From Mobula hypostoma (taxonomy: Eukaryota), in assembly GCF_963921235.1 (NCBI RefSeq), contig NC_086097.1, positions 36,396,001 to 36,460,000 of the forward strand: 64,000 nucleotides of DNA. The letters are read 5' to 3'. Of this stretch, positions 3,117 to 53,689 are shown in pieces. Under the pieces are notes generated by a model that searched no databases, was not told the origin of the DNA, and saw only the letters and a program-made list of their open reading frames with translations. The translations under genes were made by a program, and so were the position numbers. Each line of letters starts with the position of its first letter. Positions within the stretch are counted from its first letter, which is position 1.

Positions 3117-4948
3117 AGATTTAACACCCGAGAAATGAGCTATTCATTTTACAGGCTCTGATGAAAGATCTTCATAACCCAAAAAAATTAACTATATTTC
3201 TTTCCATACTTGCAGTCTGACCTACTGAGTGTTGCCAGCATAGAGTCAGAATCATAGAGCACTACAGCACAGAAAACCCCTTCAGCCCATTCAGTCTGTG
3301 CTGCACTATTGACCTGCCTAGTTCCATTAACCTGTACCAGGACCACAGCTCTGTGCACCCTTCTCATCCATGTACCTATCCAAATTTTTCTTAAATGTTG
3401 AAATTGAACCCGCATTTATTACTTGCCCTGGCAGCTTGTTCCACACCCTTACCTTCCTCTGCGTGAAAAAATCCCCCTCATGTTCCCCTTAAACATTTCA
3501 CTTTTCACCCTTACCTTCCAATAAGATGGCGGCATGTTTGATTGCAATGGCTTCAATGGGGTCAGCTAAATGTATTTTTTATGAGCATAAGATCATGCTG
3601 AACATTAAGAACTTGAGGTACTGCAGGTCTACCCCGTCAGCGAGTTGCTCACTGGTGGAGATACTGAAGGAGCTGGACTTGGTACGGGTCGTGCCGCTGC
3701 CTGCCTCAGAGAGGCATTGGAGGAGTCAGTGCTTAAAGGTAGTGGACAGTCTAACAGCTTAGACTGATTGTCTTAGTTGCCGTGTTTTTGAGATTGCGAG
3801 ACCCTGTTGGACATTTTAAATGTGGAATCCTGCAAGCCCGATTGAATGCTTTATTGGCAGATGGTGGGGTAGCCGCGTGGCCTTGCCTGTAGCAAGGACT
3901 AGGCCTCAAGCCGTAGTGTGGCCTGTTTACAGTCACCCAGAAGAGAGGCGTTGGAGACAGCGTGGTATGTCATCCAGGCTGGAGTTGGTGCTGCCCTCAG
4001 TGTACGCTCGGCAGAAGACAAACTGTGTTATGTCTGATTGTGGATTGATGCAGCATTCATGGACTCAGGGTCTTGGACTATTTTTTCTGTGTGTGACTGT
4101 GTTTTACTGATATTTTATATGTGCTTGTTATCTTATATGTGCTCTATGTGCCTTTTGTTATCACTGAGGGTTCCTCGACAGCTGTGGCAGGGTTTGATTG
4201 TCATAACCTCCTACAGAGTTAAATCTTGTGACATGGGGGAAAGATGAGCTTCCAGATAAGCTCAATGCTTTCTATGCTTGCTTTGACCACCAGAGCAGGG
4301 AGGGAAAATCGTGCACCCCCTTGTCTCCCAATGATCCTCTGGTCACAGTATCTGAAGATAACGTGCGGGCTACTTTCAGGAGAGTGAATCCAAGGAAAGC
4401 GTCAATCTGGATGGAATTCTTGGCTGAGTACTGAAGACCTGCGCTGACAAACTGGCTGGTATTTTCACAGATATCTTCAACCTCTCACTTTGGTAGTGTG
4501 TGGTAGCCACCTACTTCAAGCAGCTTCAATCATACTGGTGCCCCCAGTCAGCATGGTAACCTGCCTCAAAGACTATCGCCCAGTGGCACTTACATCCTCA
4601 GTGATGAAGTGTTTTGTGAAACTGGTGTTGAATCATTTCAGTTCCTGTCTGAATGCCAACTTGTATCCACTCCAACTTGCCTACTGAAGCAACAGGGTCT
4701 ACAGCAGATGCCACCTTATTGGCTCTTCACACAACCCTGGAACCTCTCATTCAACGTCAATAAGACCAAAGAACTGATTGTAGACCAGGCGAGGGAAACT
4801 AAATGTTCATGAGCCAGTACTTATCGGAGGATCAGAGGTGGAGAGGGTCAGTGACTTTAAATTCCTGGGTGTCACTATCTCAGAGGACCTGGCCTGGAGC
4901 TATCATGTAAATATAATTTCAAAGAAAGCACAACAGTGCCTCTACTTC

Positions 4949-5387
4949 AAAGTTGCTGGTGAACGCAGCAGGCCAGGTAGCATCTCTAGGAAGAGGTACA
5001 GTCGATGTTTCAGGCCGAGACCCTTCGTCAGGACTAACTGAAAGAAGAGCTAGTAAGAGAGTTGAAAGTGGGAGGGGGAGGGGGAGATCCAAAATGATAG
5101 GAGAAGACAGGAGGGGGAGGGATGGAGCCAAGAGCTAGACAGTTGATTGGCGAAAGGGATATGAGAAGATCCATCCCCATCCCTCCCCCTCCTAACATTT
5201 TGGATCTCCTCCTCCCCCTCCCACTTTCAAATCTCTTACTAGCTCTTCTTTCAGTTAGTCCTGACGAAAGGTCTCGGCCCAAAACGTCGACTGTACCTTT
5301 TCCTAGAGATGCTGCCCGGCCTGCTGCGTTCACCAGCAACTTTGATGTGTGTTGCTTGAAATTCCAGCATCTGCAGAATTCCTCGTG
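4949..5387. mobile_element. Penelope-like fold-back insertion with two inverted terminal-repeat arms, each carrying a hammerhead motif
   Basis: Arms of about 170 bp (~4947-5120 vs ~5175-5345); 14-bp TSD agtgcctctacttc (4935-4948, 5388-5401). Confidence 0.9.
5000..5035 (-). ncRNA. Minimal hammerhead ribozyme motif (PLE-associated), AUC cleavage triplet
   Basis: Minus strand AGTC-CTGACGA-AGG-gtctcgg-CCT-GAAAC-ATC-GACT; stem I AGTC/GACT. Confidence 0.65.
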
Positions 5388-6789
5388 AGTGCCTCTACTT
5401 CCTCAGGAGTCTATGGAAATTTGGCATGTCATCAAAAGCCTTGGCAAACTCCTATAGATATGTGGTGGGAATTGTGCTGACAGGCTATATTCTGGCCGCG
5501 TATGGGAACACCAAAGCCTTTGAGCAGAAAAATCGAAAAAAGGTAGTGGATTCGGCCCAGTACATCATGGGTAAAACCCTCTGAACCAGTGAGCACATCT
5601 ATGTGAAACATTGCCTTAGAAAAGCAGCATCCATCATCAAAGATCCTCACCACTCAAGCCATGCTCTCTTCTTGCTGCTGCCATCATGTAGAAGGTACAA
5701 ATTCCTCAGAACTTGCACCACCAGGTTCAAGAGCAGTTACTACCTCTCAATGATCAGGCTCTTGAACAAAAGGGGATAACTACACTTGTAGTGTTCCCAC
5801 AGCTGATGGGGGTTCACTTTAAAGACTCTTTATCCTGTTATTTCATGTCTGCTATTTATTGCTTTTTTTTATATCTGCACTTGCACAGTTTGTTGTTCAT
5901 TGATCCTGTTCACAGTTATGGTTCTATAGATTTTCAAAGTATGTCCACAGAAAAAAAATCTCAGGGTTGTATGTGGTGACATGTATGTACTCTGATAATA
6001 AATTTTACTTTTTGAAATTTTTCCTGTGTGGTACAGTGGTTTGCACCTTGGCCCCAGGGTAATGTTGTTTCATTTGGCTGTATTCATGGGCACTCATGTA
6101 TGGGTGAATTACAAAGTTCAACTTGAACTTGAAATTAACACATGAACTCTAGTTTAGTTTCATCCACCTTCTCAATCTTTTACATTCTAGGGAGTAACAG
6201 ACTAACCTATTCAATCTTTCCCTGTAACTCAGGTCCTCAAGTTCCGGTAATGTCCTTGCAAATTTTCTTAGCACCCTTTCAATCTTACTTACATCTTTCC
6301 TGCAGGCAGGTAACCAGAAATGCACACAATACTCCAAATTAGGCCTCGCCAATGTCATATACAATTTCAACATAACATTCCAACTACTGTACTCAATACA
6401 TTGATTTATGAAGACCAATGTGCCAAAAGCTTTACTTACCTACCTACCTTACCTACCTGTGATGCCATTTTCGAGGAATTCCCAGATCCTTCTATTCTAC
6501 CGCACTCCTCAGTGCCCTACCACTCATCATGTAGGAGCTACCTGGTTGGTCCTCTCAAAGTACAACACCTCACACATCTGCATTAAATTCTATCTGATAT
6601 TTTTCAGCCCATTTTTTCAGATGTTCAAGACCCCACTGCAAGCTTTGATACTCTTCCTCTCTATGAACTACACCCCCAGTCTTGGTGTCATCTGCAAATC
6701 TGCTGATCCAGTTTACCACGTTGTCATCCAGGTTGTTGATATACAGTAGATGACTAACAACAACGGACCCAGCACAGATCTCTGCTATT

Positions 6790-18645: not shown

Positions 18646-18838
18646 TAAACCCAAAACAATCTGCAGACGCTGGGGCCAAAGCAACACTTACAACAAGCTG
18701 GAGGAACTCAGCAGGTCGGGCAGCATCCGTGGAAAAGATTGGTCGACGTTTTGGGCCGGAACCCTTCCTCCGAAACGTCGACCGATCTTTTCCACGGATG
18801 CTGCCCGACCTGCTGAGTTCCTCCAGCTTGTTGTGAGT
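18646..18838. mobile_element. Penelope-derived near-perfect hairpin insertion with hammerhead core deleted at the fold
   Basis: Inverted arms ~18684-18750 vs ~18770-18840; 13-bp TSD gtcaatttatacg (18633-18645, 18839-18851). Confidence 0.85.
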
Positions 18839-48445: not shown

Positions 48446-50669
48446 TGTTTACAATGTCATTGGGATGTTTTGGAACTCATATCGTGAATTATATTCTGTT
48501 AGGATTGACAAACTATTTTACATGGAACGTAATATAGAACATAGAAATCTACAGCACATTACAGGCCCTTCGGCCCACAATGCTGTGCTGACCACGTAAC
48601 TTACTCTGGAAACTGCCTAGAATTTCCCTAGTGCATAGCCCTCTATTTTTCCAAGCTCCATGTGCCAATTTAAGAGTCTTTGAAAGGCCCTATTGTATCC
48701 ACTTCCACCACCGCTGCAGGCAGTGCATTCCACGCACCCACCACTGTGTGAAAAAATTTTAGATGGCGCAATTTGAAATTATTTACAGAAATTATTGACA
48801 AAGCAGCAACAGAGACCAGTAAACAAACCTTGCAGCAGTACAACATTGATAAATCAATGGACGTGGTGCTACTTAGTGATTAACCAGCTTTCATAAGTTT
48901 ACTAGCTATCTAAACACAAAAGGTAATTGTCCTTGGGCATGCTTCCAGCTAAGAGAAGTTCTGACTGTCGCCTGACTTCTTGCAAATGGGAGGCTGTGTT
49001 GCAAATATTATCAAATCCAAATGAAGTTGGGCAACATTACCAACAGTAGCATGTCACTTCCCAGTGAGCTCAATACATTCTGTGTACATTCAGAACAGAA
49101 TGTTACCGCTCCCCCTGACAGTCTCGGAACCCACAGTCACCACTGCAGACCCAAGGTCAGTCTTCCAGAGACTGAATATGCAGAAAGCATCTAGCATGCG
49201 TGTTTGTAGATATTTTAATCTTGCTTTGCTTCAGGCTGTGATTCCTTCTGCTTTAAAATCATCCAGATACCCAAGAGAAACAAGGTGACATGTCTTACTA
49301 ACTATCGCCCAGCGGCTCTGACATTCACCACCATCAAATGGTCATGATACATGTTCAAGTTTAATTGTCATTCAATCATACACGAGTACCCATGAATACA
49401 GCCAAATGAAACTGTGTTACTCTGGGGTCAAGGTGCAAAGAAGTTACACACAAAGCACATAAGATAGCAAGCACATACAAGCTATCAATACAGTCACAAA
49501 AAAAGAGTCCAAGACAACAAGTCCTTGAAATCCATAGTCGACCACAGCACAACTCGTCTTCTGCTGAGAGAACACTAGGGGGCAGCACCATCTCCAGCTT
49601 GGATGCCACACCCTCTCTCTTGGGTGGCTGTAAAGAGGCACCACAGCAATTTGAGGCCTCGTCCTCGCTATGACTGAGGGTACACTGTGAGTTGATATGC
49701 ATCAGCTCCAACTTTTCAGACAACCTTAACCCCCTGCAATTTGCCTGCAGCTGAAACAAGTCTACAGCGGATACCTTCTCCCGGATACCATCTCTTGGAA
49801 CATCTGAACAATAAAGACAATTGGTTGCTGATGGATTGTGTGGTCCAGCTAATAGAGGTTTTTACAGACATCTTTAATACCTCTTTACAACAGCCCACTG
49901 TCGCTGCAGGCTTCAAGGCAGCCACCGTCATACTGGTGCCCAAGAAAGCAATTGTAAGTGGCCGAAACGATTACTGCCCAGTGGCACTGACCTCAACAAT
50001 CATGAAGTGCTTTGAGTGGCTGGTAATGGATTGTATAAACTCCCAGCTTCCAGCTACATTGGACTCTTTCCAGTTCACCTACCTCTCAAACCAGTGCACT
50101 GATGAGGTTATAGCCTCAGCTCTCCACTTTGTCCTGTCCTACCTAGAAAATTATGCCTCATTACGCCAGGTTGTTGCTTATTAGCTTCAGCTTGGTATCT
50201 TACACAATCATTCCTTCGAGGCTGGTAGGTTAACTAACCTCATTGGGTCTCAACACTCCTCTCTGGAACTGAATCTTGGACTTCTTGACAGAAAGACCCC
50301 AGTCAGTCCAAGTTGGTAGCAACATCTCAAGCTCCATCATGCTGAGCACTGGTGGCCCTAGGGCTGTGTGCTCAGTCCACCGCTGTCTTGTGACAGCACT
50401 GCCAGATCCAGCTCAAAATGTATGAAGTTCGTTGATGGTACATCAGTGGTTGGCCTCTTCAGCAACAATCAGCAATACAGAGAGGAGGTAGAGAGGCTTG
50501 TCAAATGGTGTGAGAACAACATCCTGAGTCTCAATGTGGACAGGGCAAAAGAGATGATTGTGGACTTCAGGAAGGTGCAGGTCAACCACTTTCCATTGCA
50601 CATGGTCTTACCATGGAGAATGTGAAGAGCACTAAGTCCCTTGGTGTGCACATAATGGAAGATCTAACC

Positions 50670-50806
50670 GTCCTGGTGAAGGGTCTCAGCCCGAAACATC
50701 GACTGTGTACTCTTTTTCATAGATGCTGCCTAGCCTGCTGAGTTCCTCCAGCATTTTGTGCGTAGCTTGGATTTCCAGTATCTGCAGATTTTCTTGTGTT
50801 TGTGAT
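50670..50806 (+). mobile_element. PLE terminal fragment beginning at a hammerhead variant (CTGGTGA core)
   Basis: gtc-ctggtga-agggtctcagccc-gaaac-atc-gact followed by the PLE 3' terminus; interrupts a Rex DLTW motif. Confidence 0.75.
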
Positions 50807-51863
50807 TGGATCACATCATCTCCTCACTAGTCAAGAAGGCAGTGCAGCACCTATACTTTAAGGAGATTGGGGTGTGCAAGGCTTTCTATAGGAGCATCAG
50901 AGAGTGTCCTGTCTGACTGCATCATTGTGTGGTACAGAAGCTGCAAGGCATTGGACCACAAGACCCTACAAAGGATAGCAAACACGGCCAGGAGGACCTC
51001 TGGAGTCTCCCTTCCTCCTAATTCTGACATTTACTGGGAGCGTTGTATACGAAGGACCCCCAAAGCATTGCTGAGGATCCTTACCACCCATCCCACAAAC
51101 TCTCTGCCCCATTACCATCAGGAAGAAGGTACCTAAGCAACAGGACTAGAACTGCCATATTGAGCAACAGTTTCTTCCCTCAGGCTGTGAGACTAATGAA
51201 TATCTTGCCAAAACTGAGGTCTCATCACTAAACAGCGAGCTGTTTATTGCTTACTCTTTATCTGTGTTGCACACCACATGCACTTTGAATTATATTTTAT
51301 TTACTTATTTCTGGTAATGTTTTGTTTTATATGCTGTGTGTGATGTACAACATGTTTTGTGAGTGCACTGTGGTCCAGAGGAAAGTTGTTTTGTTTGGTT
51401 GTATACATGTAGTGTCAGATGACAATAAACTTGAAAATTGATTTCAGCTCTGCCTTCAATGCTACAATTCCAAGCAAACACATCACCAAACTCCTGACCT
51501 CTGCAACTGGATCCTTGACTTGTTGAGCAACAGTCTGCAATCAGCAAGGTTAGGCAACAACACCTCCACCATGATTATTCTAAACACCGGGCTCCCAAAG
51601 GTTGCGTCCTCAGCCCCCTACTCCACTCCATGTACACTCATGTCTGCATGACCACATCCTGATCTATCTCTATCTACAAGCTTGCACATGGTACCACCAG
51701 CGTGGGCCACATCTCCAACAACATTGAACTGGAGCATAGGAAGGAGATCAAGAGCTTAGTGACATAAACACGAAGAATTCTGCAGATGCTGAAAATTCAA
51801 GAAACACACATCAAAGTTGCTGGTGAACGCAGCAGTCCAGGCAGCATCTCTAGGAAGTGGTAC

Positions 51864-51899
51864 AGTCGACGTTTCGGGCCGAGACCCTTCGTCAGGACT
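51864..51899 (-). ncRNA. Minimal type I hammerhead ribozyme with intact core
   Basis: Minus strand AGTC-CTGACGA-A-GGG-tctcgg-CCC-GAA-ACGT-C-GACT: stem I AGTC/GACT, stem II GGG/CCC, palindromic ACGT stem III, GUC cleavage triplet. Confidence 0.8.
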
Positions 51900-52204
51900 A
51901 ACTGAAGAAAGAGCTAGTAAGAGATTTGAAAGTGGAAGGGGGAGGGGGAGATCCAAAATGATAGGAGAAGACAGGAGGGGGAGGGATGGAGCCAAGAGCT
52001 GGACAGGTGATTGGCAAAAGGGGATACGAGAGGATCATGGGACAGGAGGTCCGGGAAGAAAGACAAGGGGGGGGGGACCCAGAGGATGGGCAAGGGGTAT
52101 ATTCAGAGGGACAGAGGGAGAAAAAGGAGAGAGAGAGAAACAATGTGTGTATATAAATAAATAATTGATGGGGTACGAAGGGGAGGTGGGGCCTTAGCGG
52201 AAGT

Positions 52205-52690
52205 TAGAGGTCAATGTTCATGCCATCAGGTTGGAGGCTACCCATACGGAATATAAGGTGTTGTTCCTCCAACCTGAGTGTGGCTTCATCTTTACAGTAG
52301 AGGAGGCCGTGGATAGACATGTCAGAATGGGAATGGGATGTGGAATTAAAATGTGTGGCCACTGGGAGATCCTGCTTTCTCTGGCGGACAGAGCGTAGAT
52401 GTTCAGCAAAGCGGTCTCCCAGTCTGCGTCGGGTCTCACCAATATATAGAAGGCCACATTGGGATCACCGGACGCAGTTTATCACCCCAGCCGACTCACA
52501 GGTGAAGTGTCGCCTCACCTGGAAGGACTGTCTGGGGCCCTGAATGGTGGTAAGAGAGGAAGTGTAAGGGATGTGTAGCACTTGTTCCACTTACAAGGAT
52601 AAGTGCCAGGAGGGAGATCGGTGGGGAGGGATGTGGGGGACGAATGGACAAGGGAGTCGTGTAGGGAGCGATCCCTGTGGAAAGTGGCGG
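52205..52690 (-). pseudogene. Penelope GIY-YIG endonuclease (disrupted)
   Basis: Manual translation: FQVRRHFTCESAGVINCVR*SQCGLLYIGETRRRLGDRFAEHLRS...VATHFN...LEEQHLIFRMGSLQPDGMN; upstream RDRSLHDSLV...PGTYPC...C linker. Confidence 0.88.
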
Positions 52691-53689
52691 GGGGGGGAGG
52701 GAAAGATGTGCTTAGTGGTGGGATCCCGTTGGAGGTGGCGGAAGTTACGGAGAATAATATGTTGGACCCGGAGGCTGGTGGGGTGGCAGGTGAGGACCAG
52801 AGGAACCCTATTCCTAGTGGGGTGGCGGGATGGCCTGCTGCGTTCACCAGCAACTTTGATGTATGCAGCTTAGTGACGTGTTGTCTTGACATCAACATTT
52901 CCATCAATGTCGACAGAACAGAAGAACTGGTCACTCAGAGAGAGGTGGGACACGTGCGCCTGCCTGCATCAGGGTTACTGAGGTTGAGAGTTGAGAGCTT
53001 TAAGCATAACCTGTCTTGATCCAACCTCATTGACGCCACAGTCAAGAAAGCTCACCAATGCCTCCATTTTCTCAGGAGGCCAAAGAAATTTGGCATATCC
53101 CCATTCACTTTTACTAATATTTATCAATACACCATAGAAAGCATCCAATCTGAAAGCATAACAGCTTAGTATGGCAACTGCTCTGCCTGTGACCACAAGA
53201 AACTGCTGAGCTGTAGACAAAGTTCAGCACATCACGGGAACCAGCCACCCTCTATGGACTCTGTCTATACTTCTCACTACCTCAGTAAAGCAACCACCTT
53301 AATCGATGACTCAACCCACCCTCGACAGCCTCTCCTCTCACCCCTCCCATCGGGCAGAAGAAACAAAAGTCTGAAGGCACATGTCACAGGTCAAGCACGG
53401 CTTCTACTCTGCAGTTAGAAGACTATTAAACGGTTCCCTAGAATAAGATTTACTCTTGACCTCACCATCTACCTCGTTATGATCTTGCTGTCTACCTGCA
53501 CTTTCTCTGTAGCTGTTACACTTCATTTTTCTCTGTCCTTGCACCACCTCAATGCACTGTGTAATGAATTGACCCATATGAACTTTTCAGTATCCCACTG
53601 TAGTTGACAATAATACATCAATTCCAAAGCTGTGATTAATACTTGCTCTTAATATCCAATAATAAAAGTTGCTGGTATGGGACAGATTA

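What the first reader, a model, noticed from the sequence alone, without database searches (positions are those of the whole stretch)
51864..51899. Intact minimal hammerhead ribozyme in the terminal repeat of a Penelope-like element
Seen in sequence: the minus strand reads AGTC-CUGACGA-A-GGG-UCUCGG-CCC-GAA-ACGU-C^GACU. It has the full catalytic core, a 4-bp stem I, an extra A before a 3-bp stem II, and a loop-less palindromic ACGU stem III. It lies about 300 nt downstream of the GIY-YIG remnant in the same orientation. Established: PLEs are known to carry minimal hammerheads whose palindromic stem III is thought to form by dimerisation of tandem copies. Inference: this family processes its RNA by ribozyme cleavage. 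I cannot tell whether this specific family has been described.
Basis: partly seen in the sequence, partly recalled or inferred. Interest (0 to 1): 0.8.

Follow-up and report, generated by a model that had tools for sequence, protein, structure and literature searches.

The report
Known-type hammerhead in Penelope retrotransposon tail
The flagged 36 bases are an intact minimal hammerhead ribozyme motif in the tail of a broken Penelope-like jumping gene, one of tens of thousands of near-identical copies in this genome; the motif type is already described, and it is predicted, not shown, to cut RNA when two copies pair.

Summary
My own descriptor finds it as the only strict hit in the window, against 0 hits in 50 shuffles.

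It lies 304 nt after the stop of a GIY-YIG remnant. The host is a 5'-truncated Penelope-like element (PLE), 52830->51764. With a 36-nt inverted partner it forms one insertion flanked by an 11-bp target duplication.

Longer family copies carry an RT-plus-GIY-YIG ORF, with the motif in both direct terminal repeats.

The exact 31-mer occurs 6,207 times in the 3.48-Gb genome. A one-base variant (U at 11.1) occurs 39,897 times.

In 80 distant PLE loci from metagenomes the same architecture recurs: 19 hits on the ORF strand, 1 on the other, 0 in shuffles. Stem sequences differ widely, and 18 of 20 carry the extra base after A9.

All these features match the minimal hammerhead of Cervera & de la Pena 2014 (PMC4209133). 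Cleavage is untested here, and published activity is weak or protein-assisted. This scan has noted the same family in this genome before. Known kind, low interest.

The parts
51864..51899 (-). Minimal type-I hammerhead motif. Layout: stem I AGUC/GACU (plus U.G at 51900/51863), core CUGACGA, extra A, stem II GGG(U)..(G)CCC, GAA, palindromic ACGU, C17.
   Evidence: only strict descriptor hit in the window; 0 in 50 shuffles. (6,207 exact copies of the inner 31-mer; backwards control 0).
51867..51868 (-). Predicted cleavage site, after GUC (C at 51868, G at 51867).
   Evidence: Position follows from the hammerhead consensus applied. Cleavage was not tested.
51764..51863 (-). 3' tail of the element after the hammerhead. 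It includes the box GATGCTGCCTGGACTGCTG (51848->51830), which is conserved across subfamilies.
   Evidence: The end is set by the target duplication.
51900..52203 (-). 3' untranslated region between the endonuclease stop and the hammerhead (304 nt).
52204..52464 (-). GIY-YIG endonuclease remnant (86-aa open frame, GLLYIGET...).
   Evidence: Pfam PF01541 at E=0.011, 16.5 bits, below the 22.6 cut-off. The family copy L065 scores 24.2 bits.
52465..52830 (-). Frameshifted remnant of the RT-to-EN linker. It includes YPCKWNKCYTS, where the third Cys of the CX4CxxC motif is Ser. The 5' truncation point of this copy is at 52830.
   Evidence: The intact motif is seen in L065.
52831..52866 (+). Inverted 5'-truncated partner: a 36-nt piece of the tail on the other strand, abutting the main copy head to head. 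It has no hammerhead.
51753..51763 (.). Target-site duplication, copy 1 (AGCTTAGTGAC).
   Evidence: this 11-mer occurs in the window only here and at 52867.
52867..52877 (.). Target-site duplication, copy 2 (AGCTTAGTGAC).

Best explanation
This is an intact copy of the minimal type-I hammerhead motif that Penelope-like retrotransposons carry in their terminal repeats, sitting in the 3' tail of a dead, 5'-truncated copy; it is predicted to cut its RNA after GUC only when two copies pair.

Shown here:
- The motif and its copy number in the genome.
- Its place after an RT-plus-GIY-YIG ORF, and in both terminal repeats of longer family copies.
- The same architecture, with different stem sequences, in distant PLE relatives.

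Inferred from the literature, not tested here:
- Two motifs, from the two repeats of one tandem transcript or from two RNAs, would pair through the ACGU palindrome into a shared 4-bp helix III. That would form two active sites that cut between C17 and G1.1, leaving a 2',3'-cyclic phosphate and a 5'-OH.
- Cutting is probably helped by the element's own protein.
- The cut would trim read-through or tandem transcripts to unit length, and might allow circularisation.

At this locus the motif is most likely idle, because the copy has lost its RT and has no second hammerhead in the same insertion.
For: Motif and chance:
- The sequence is as described. It is the single strict descriptor hit in the window, with 0 in 50 shuffles.
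- Genome counts are 6,207 exact copies of the 31-mer, 39,897 of the U11.1 variant, and 64,874 when CpG transitions are allowed at five sites. The backwards control is 0 in all three searches.

Host element:
- The motif is contiguous with the GIY-YIG remnant.
- The copy aligns to family copies over 52830->51766 at 84-93% identity.
- An 11-bp target duplication flanks the main copy plus its inverted partner.

Family:
- A YIDD RT region is seen in L002, L035 and L037.
- L065 has a CX4CxxC linker and GIY-YIG at 24.2 bits, above the 22.6 cut-off.
- 158 homologues have E<=0.001, the best at 4e-157. They are about 900 aa, with precomputed RVT_1 and, in many rows, PF01541.
- L064 has a 644-nt direct terminal repeat at 91% identity. 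L065 has the motif at 611 and 4208.

Independent relatives:
- In 80 metagenome PLE loci (307 kb) the descriptor gives 19 hits on the ORF strand in 17 loci and 1 on the other strand, with 0 in 10 shuffles.
- 18 of 20 have one extra base after A9.
- Helix III is palindromic in all (acgt, agct, atat, accggt, atagctat). The descriptor required this.
- Stem II reaches 6-7 pairs in 12 of 20 where only 3 were required.
- At least 12 different stem I sequences are all complementary.

Literature:
- PMC4209133 (main text parts 1-2 read) describes exactly these traits, and also dual motifs on opposite strands 100-700 bp apart.
- PMC8557442 (passages) describes pLTRs, inverted 5'-truncated partners and tails.
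Against: - No cleavage data exist for this family. No RNA reads were available, so no 5'-OH ends could be mapped.
- Within this genome I saw no compensatory change in either stem. Variation in 34 unselected copies is mostly CpG transitions.
- 5' ends of 47 tail-anchored, unselected copies do not pile up at the cut site: 1 lies near it, 4 at the outer edge of the motif, and 33 run past it.
- The form with a G.U wobble at 10.1-11.1 is 6.4 times commoner than the canonical form. A strong ribozyme is therefore not needed for amplification.
- The predicted monomer fold is an inactive rod in which GACG of the core pairs with CGUC of the cut site: -13.5 kcal/mol, against -9.5 for the hammerhead fold.
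- Published work: single motifs are inactive and dimers weak (PMC4209133). In the Anolis element, cleavage needs the protein, catalytic mutants still insert in vitro, and no RNA-seq reads start or end at the cut site (PMC11167929, section 3 and passages).
- Naiad PLEs thrive without canonical hammerheads (PMC8557442, passages).
Confidence: 0.85

Rival explanations
1. The motif is kept mainly as a folded recognition or boundary element for the element's reverse transcriptase (a docking site, RNA 5'-end structure or RT stop). Self-cleavage would be marginal or irrelevant to retrotransposition.
For: - Copy 5' ends and head-to-head junctions cluster at the outer edge of the motif, not at the cut site. 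Of 30 loci chosen by exact motif, 8 end at 51895-51908. Of 47 unselected copies, 4 end there and 1 near the cut site.
- Divergent pairs lie 8-43 nt apart in the genome listing.
- The G.U variant at 10.1-11.1 is the most successful form.
- PMC11167929: catalytic mutants do not affect insertion in vitro, and the protein-binding region lies just downstream of the hammerhead.
- PMC8557442 raises the idea that hammerheads may simply parasitise PLEs.
Against: - The full catalytic core, G10.1-C11.1, H17 and the palindromic helix III are kept across very distant PLEs while stems change freely. A mere docking hairpin would not need that.
- C3G and G8C abolish cleavage of the Anolis motif and the double change restores it (PMC11167929). 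The motif is therefore a real, if assisted, ribozyme.
Confidence: 0.12
2. The 36 bases belong to a short non-autonomous element (a retrozyme-like or SINE-like unit of about 135 bp) that only borrows the Penelope tail, not to the Penelope copy itself.
For: - Solo units of about 135 bp that start at the motif exist in the window (50670-50806, inside a LINE ORF) and in the loci.
- bioRxiv 10.64898/2026.07.22.740005 (abstract and Results read) derives animal retrozymes from PLE terminal repeats.
Against: - Here the motif is contiguous with 3' UTR, endonuclease and linker sequence over 1,067 nt, and shares one target duplication with them.
- No tandem array of short units was seen in the window.
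Confidence: 0.02
3. A chance match to a loose hammerhead pattern.
For: The loose pattern CTGANGA-N6-30-GAAAC alone is expected 1.33 times per window by chance.
Against: - 0 hits of the full descriptor in 50 window shuffles.
- 6,207 exact copies against 0 for the backwards control.
- Conserved position after PLE ORFs in unrelated loci.
Confidence: 0.01

Closest known systems
Minimal hammerheads (min-HHR) in the terminal repeats of metazoan Penelope-like elements (Cervera & de la Pena 2014, PMC4209133; main text parts 1-2 read)
   Same: - Type-I layout and full core.
- One unpaired base between A9 and G10.1, and a G10.1-C11.1 pair.
- No helix III loop, with a palindromic 15.2-16.2.
- Short helix I.
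- Location in the terminal repeat after the RT-EN ORF.
- Thousands of dispersed single copies, and pairs on opposite strands 100-700 bp apart.
   Different: - Nothing in kind.
- Copy number is high: at least 64,874 near-exact motifs, against about 4,000 and 9,000 quoted for coelacanth and Xenopus.
- Most copies carry U at 11.1.
- The paper's figures and supplements, which hold the fish sequences, were not seen. I therefore cannot say whether this exact sequence family is shown there.
Poseidon element PAc of Anolis carolinensis (Frangieh et al. 2024, PMC11167929; section 3 part 1 and passages read)
   Same: - EN+ PLE with pLTRs and a hammerhead.
- Both DNA strands are cut and extended in vitro, which fits the head-to-head partners seen here.
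- Insertions end at an internal 'tail' site.
   Different: - In PAc the ORF starts inside the hammerhead (at stem II). Here the motif lies 304 nt after the stop, about 100 nt before the insertion's 3' end, and about 220 nt before the open frame of a full-length copy (L065: tail ends at 707, frame opens at 928).
- The linker here has the CX4CxxC motif, which PMC8557442 assigns to the Neptune and Nematis clades, not Penelope/Poseidon.
Animal non-LTR retrozymes (Cervera & de la Pena 2020, PMC7229834, listing and abstract only; Li et al. 2026 bioRxiv 10.64898/2026.07.22.740005, abstract and Results read)
   Same: Type-I hammerheads related to PLE terminal repeats. Dispersed monomers occur. Reported in one chondrichthyan among 31 vertebrates.
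   Different: Retrozymes are tandem arrays of short non-coding units expressed as circular RNAs. This locus is a coding-element remnant with a single motif and no array.
Rfam hammerhead families (types I, II, III, HH9, HH10; names recalled)
   Same: Same catalytic core.
   Different: No Rfam model scores the site, even at E<=10. The motif lacks the intramolecular helix III that those models expect (my inference).

Membership tests
Hammerhead ribozyme, minimal PLE type | Conserved core: C3 U4 G5 A6 N7 G8 A9, G12 A13 A14, A15.1/U16.1, H17 not G | tested here: met
   CUGACGA ... GAA A..U C, read directly. Passes the descriptor.
Hammerhead ribozyme, minimal PLE type | Helix I closing the motif (4-5 bp in PLE motifs) | tested here: met
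   AGUC/GACU plus U.G.
Hammerhead ribozyme, minimal PLE type | Helix II hairpin with G10.1-C11.1, preceded by one unpaired base after A9 | tested here: met
   A + GGGU CUCG GCCC. 18 of 20 motifs in distant PLE loci have the extra base. The trait is named in PMC4209133.
Hammerhead ribozyme, minimal PLE type | No helix III loop; self-complementary 15.1-16.1 segment able to pair with a second copy | tested here: met
   ACGU. The same or other palindromes occur in relatives, where the descriptor required them. The dimer itself cannot be scored by nested folding.
Hammerhead ribozyme, minimal PLE type | Stem covariation with a constant core across relatives | tested here: met
   Across 80 metagenome PLE loci: 20 motifs with at least 12 different stem I sequences and varied stem II of 3-7 bp, 0 hits in shuffles, and a 19:1 strand bias. 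Pairing was required by the descriptor, so the independent evidence is the strand bias, the shuffles and the extra pairs. Within this genome no compensatory change was seen.
Hammerhead ribozyme, minimal PLE type | Site-specific Mg-dependent self-cleavage | not testable with these tools
   No RNA raw reads were available, and contigs cannot show ends.
Canonical hammerhead as modelled in Rfam | Score at or above a family's gathering threshold | tested here: not met
   0 matches at gathering score and 0 at E<=10 in 51500-52300.
Penelope-like element, endonuclease-positive, C-terminal EN | Reverse transcriptase domain in the same ORF | tested here: met
   At family level only. A YIDD region is seen in L002, L035 and L037. 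RVT_1 scores E=0.037, below the cut-off. Homologues reach E 4e-157 and carry precomputed RVT_1. The window copy has lost the RT through 5' truncation.
Penelope-like element, endonuclease-positive, C-terminal EN | C-terminal GIY-YIG endonuclease | tested here: met
   L065 scores 24.2 bits for PF01541 against a 22.6 cut-off. The window remnant scores 16.5 bits, E=0.011, below the cut-off.
Penelope-like element, endonuclease-positive, C-terminal EN | Pseudo-LTRs from partial tandem copies | tested here: met
   L064: 144-786 matches 3661-4295 (644 nt, 91%). L065 has the motif at 611 and 4208. The window copy does not have this.
Penelope-like element, endonuclease-positive, C-terminal EN | Inverted 5'-truncated partner and target duplication around the composite insertion | tested here: met
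   Window 52831-52866 (+) abuts 52830->51764 (-), with the 11-bp duplication AGCTTAGTGAC on both sides. A second case lies at 4840-5450 with a 14-bp duplication.
Penelope-like element, Neptune or Nematis clade | CX2-5CxxC motif in the RT-EN linker | tested here: met
   YPCKRNKCYTC in L065. In the window the third Cys is Ser. The motif-to-clade link is taken from PMC8557442 (passages).
Penelope-like element | RT groups with PLE and telomerase RTs in a phylogeny with named references | not tested
   No named reference sequences were at hand.

The most novel reading that the evidence does not exclude
In this family the hammerhead marks where the template RNA begins rather than where it is cut. 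Copies and head-to-head junctions end at the outer edge of stem I. The commonest subfamily carries a weakened G.U pair at 10.1-11.1. The monomer is predicted to fold into an inactive rod. Together these would mean that the motif has been re-used as a 5'-terminal structure or reverse-transcription stop, with catalysis largely dispensable.
Probability: 0.12. Interest if true: 0.45.

Novelty: already known. Interest (0 to 1): 0.15.

Why it matters
For this locus, little. It is one dead copy among tens of thousands, and its motif matches a published class feature for feature.

The family as a whole could still be useful as material. It offers two natural variants at 10.1-11.1: 6,207 copies with C and 39,897 with U. 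That is a ready-made comparison for asking whether hammerhead strength matters for Penelope amplification, a question the literature leaves open (PMC8557442, PMC11167929).

Annotators should also expect these motifs, and their hairpin-forming head-to-head pairs, all over this genome.

Tried and rejected
- **Rfam.** No hit at gathering score or at E<=10.
- **First fixed-gap pattern.** It had the wrong spacing and found nothing. It was replaced by a variable gap.
- **First version of my descriptor.** It had a bug: greedy stem II left too small a loop, and it missed the window's own motif. It was corrected, whose numbers I use.
- **Pfam on RT fragments.** There was no family for L002:124-870 or for the first 600 aa of L065, which is frameshifted in the RT core. 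RVT_1 scored only E=0.037 on L043.
- **PDB sequence search** with the L043 fragment: 0 hits at E<=1.
- **RNA evidence.** No RNA holder was listed and no raw reads were available. Contigs from four coded organisms (X1, X3, X9, X11) hold the region and show C/T at 51876, but cannot show RNA ends or expression.
- **Dimer fold.** The nested energy model returns only the trivial extended duplex. The double-hammerhead is formally a pseudoknot and could not be scored.
- **Covariation inside this genome.** None was seen. The non-CpG mismatch rate is 2.4% in the motif against 8.5% in the flanks (34 copies, including the window's own). The flank figure is inflated by subfamily-diagnostic sites, because one real copy (L009) and not a consensus was the reference. 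I do not count this as evidence of selection.
- **Enrichment of copy starts at the cut site.** Not seen.
- **Literature.** No paper in the library holds 'hammerhead ribozyme' + 'Penelope' + 'shark' other than one with a figurative use of the word. None holds 'Penelope' + 'ribozyme' + 'cartilaginous'. Repbase and Dfam are not available here, so whether this family has an entry is unknown.
- **Lunse, Weinberg & Breaker** (RNA Biol; title seen in the reference list of PMC6765202) is not held.

Full report
**1. The observation**

One search shows the minus strand 51899->51864 as AGTC-CTGACGA-A-GGGTCTCGGCCC-GAA-ACGT-C-GACT, exactly as reported. In hammerhead numbering this gives:
- helix I: AGUC/GACU, extendable by U.G at 51900/51863;
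- C3-A9 = CUGACGA;
- one extra A;
- helix II: GGG(U)...(G)CCC;
- G12 A13 A14;
- A15.1-C15.2-G16.2-U16.1 as a loop-less palindrome;
- C17, with the predicted cut between 51868 and 51867.

Rfam finds nothing, either at gathering score over the window or at E<=10 over 51500-52300. I take this to reflect the missing intramolecular helix III (inference).

A structural descriptor of my own requires the core boxes, at least 4 pairs in helix I, at least 3 in helix II with an optional extra base, a self-complementary helix III segment, and H17 not G. It hits this site and no other in the window, and nothing in 50 shuffles. An earlier version had a bug and missed the site.

**2. The element around it**

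The ORF list shows an 86-aa frame, 52464->52204, reading GLLYIGET..., with a weak GIY-YIG hit (E=0.011, below Pfam's cut-off). Upstream lies a frameshifted stretch with YPCKWNKCYTS.

BLAST of the window against 30 genomic loci chosen by the exact 31-mer shows homology from 52830 down to about 51766. Directly upstream, 52831-52866 is a piece of the tail on the opposite strand.

The 11-mer AGCTTAGTGAC occurs in the window only at 51753-51763 and 52867-52877. The 1,067-nt main copy and its 36-nt inverted partner are therefore one insertion with a target-site duplication. A second head-to-head pair at about 4840-5450 has a 14-bp duplication and interrupts a LINE ORF.

This architecture is the one Craig et al. 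2021 describe for PLEs (PMC8557442, passages): 5' truncation, an inverted truncated partner and a tail. It also fits the finding that a purified PLE protein cuts and extends both DNA strands (PMC11167929, section 3).

**3. The family**

The exact 31-mer occurs 3108 + 3099 times in the 3.48-Gb genome, with 0 for the backwards control.

I walked upstream from these loci. Longer copies have a YIDD reverse-transcriptase region followed by the linker and the endonuclease.

- L064 carries a 644-nt direct repeat (144-786 and 3661-4295, 91% identity) with the hammerhead in each arm.
- L065 has the motif at 611 and 4208, around a 991-codon frame that has one in-frame stop and a frameshifted RT core.
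- L065's endonuclease passes Pfam's cut-off (24.2 against 22.6 bits), and its linker reads CX4CxxC. Craig et al. assign that motif to the Neptune and Nematis clades.
- Pfam's RVT_1 reaches only E=0.037 on the best open RT fragment.
- That fragment nevertheless has 158 homologues at E<=0.001. The best is at 4e-157, and they are about 900 aa with precomputed RVT_1 and, in many rows, GIY-YIG.

So the host is an endonuclease-positive Penelope-like element, and the hammerhead sits in its terminal repeat. The window copy keeps only the 3' repeat.

**4. Is the motif conserved for a reason?**

Within this genome the copies differ mainly by CpG transitions, and I saw no compensatory change. That is what neutral decay of recent copies would give.

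I therefore fetched 80 loci encoding distant relatives of the ORF from metagenome contigs (30-67% identity to the query) and ran the descriptor on them:
- 19 hits on the ORF strand in 17 loci, 1 on the other strand, and none in 10 shuffles;
- typical positions 130-530 nt after the ORF match, or upstream of it;
- in L098, both flanks, 3,419 nt apart.

The stems differ almost everywhere (gcga/tcgt, gcct/aggc, cacc/ggtg, ttgcc/ggcaa and others), while the core is constant.

Three traits were not demanded by the descriptor, yet they recur:
- the extra base after A9, in 18 of 20;
- helix II of 6-7 pairs, in 12 of 20;
- the strand and position relative to the ORF.

This reproduces, on independent data, the consensus of Cervera & de la Pena 2014 (PMC4209133): an extra base between 9 and 10.1, G10.1-C11.1, and a palindromic 15.2-16.2. 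The window motif fits it on every point.

**5. How it probably works**

The mechanism rests on the literature, not on my calls.

- A single motif cannot form helix III. Two motifs would pair through ACGU and make two active sites.
- Cervera & de la Pena found no cleavage with one motif and weak cleavage with dimers or trimers.
- Frangieh et al. 2024 found that the Anolis motif cuts only with the element's protein, and loses activity with C3G or G8C. It is not needed for insertion in vitro and leaves no read ends at the cut site in public RNA-seq.

My data add three cautions:
- Among 47 tail-anchored copies not chosen for their hammerhead, 33 run past the motif, 4 end at its outer edge and only 1 near the cut site. 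Among the 30 loci chosen by exact motif, 8 end at 51895-51908.
- The variant with U at 11.1, with all other CpGs intact, has 39,897 exact copies against 6,207 for the canonical C form. The wobble form is therefore a source-copy state and the more successful one. CpG-transition forms together number 64,874.
- The monomer's predicted best fold is a rod in which GACG of the core pairs with CGUC at the cut site: -13.5 kcal/mol, against -9.5 for the hammerhead fold.

I hold that the motif is a true PLE hammerhead (about 0.95). I hold less firmly that dimer cleavage really processes this family's RNA in vivo (about 0.4-0.5). At this locus it is most likely idle.

**6. RNA and other species**

No RNA raw reads were on offer. 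Contigs of four coded organisms hold the region. They show C/T at 51876 (11.1) at 17-64% of depth, and many contigs part from the window sequence at 51898-51899 and at 51862-51865, the two edges of the motif. This shows presence in several organisms and that the motif is the shared block. It does not show expression.

**7. Comparison and verdict**

Every feature is already in print for this class, as listed in sections 2, 4 and 5. Hammerhead-bearing PLE repeats and retrozymes have also been surveyed in vertebrates, including one chondrichthyan (bioRxiv 10.64898/2026.07.22.740005, abstract and Results).

I could not check Repbase, Dfam or the papers' figures and supplements for this exact family. 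My text searches found no paper on it.

This scan has already reported the same family in this genome many times: 92 notes hold the word 'hammerhead'. Those notes include the copy number and the clustering of 5' ends at the motif's edge. My counts agree with them but were made independently.

It is ordinary in kind, and I score interest at 0.15.

Noticed in passing
genome-wide (G000); window 5001-5031 (-) is an example with U at 11.1: The motif with U instead of C at 11.1 (GGCCT GAAAC), with every other CpG intact, has 39,897 exact copies against 6,207 for the window's canonical form. The wobble or shifted pair is therefore inherited from source copies, and it marks the most successful subfamily.
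   Followed up: partly
window 51901-51862 (-): The predicted best monomer fold is a rod in which GACG of the catalytic core pairs with CGUC at the cut site (-13.5 against -9.5 kcal/mol for the hammerhead fold). This is possible because N7 is C. It could be a self-inhibiting conformer.
   Followed up: partly
window about 4840-5450: A head-to-head pair of tail copies, with hammerheads at 5001-5031 (-) and 5261-5291 (+). It is flanked by a 14-bp duplication AGTGCCTCTACTTC and inserted in a LINE ORF (...KKAQQCLYF|LRSL...).
   Followed up: partly
window about 18690-18830: Another head-to-head pair, of a different subfamily (stem II loop UUCCGG). Its junction lies inside stem II of the hammerhead, as if the copying enzyme snapped back at the hairpin.
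   Followed up: no
window 50670-50806 (+): A solo copy of about 137 bp that starts at the outer edge of the hammerhead and has A6 changed to G (CTGGTGA). It is inserted in the reverse-transcriptase ORF of a LINE (50362-51136, +).
   Followed up: no
window 51848-51830 (-) and 13 other places: A box GATGCTGCC-G---TGCTG about 15 nt after the hammerhead is kept across subfamilies whose flanks differ. With the following CAGCA(T) it can form an (A)UGCUG/CAGCA(U) hairpin. It is a candidate binding or start site for the reverse transcriptase.
   Followed up: no
window 241, 526, 19134, 19319, 27485, 38782: At least six further decayed hammerhead-plus-tail copies of other subfamilies (tail ...GAGTTCCTCCAGCATTTTGTG). 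In all, about a dozen copies lie in 64 kb.
   Followed up: partly
window 51793-52164 (+): The reverse complement of the element's 3' UTR and tail is open for 123 codons. This is probably a by-product of its C/T-rich composition.
   Followed up: no
L098:26-66 and 3445-3485; L089:2484-2525 and 3698-3739: Metagenome PLE loci with two same-strand hammerheads, 3,419 and 1,214 nt apart. The first has the spacing of a full unit between terminal repeats.
   Followed up: no
L002:50-130: This copy joins the element's 5' region (...LLGPQRL.LPLTP...) directly to the YIDD region, which makes it an internally deleted copy.
   Followed up: no
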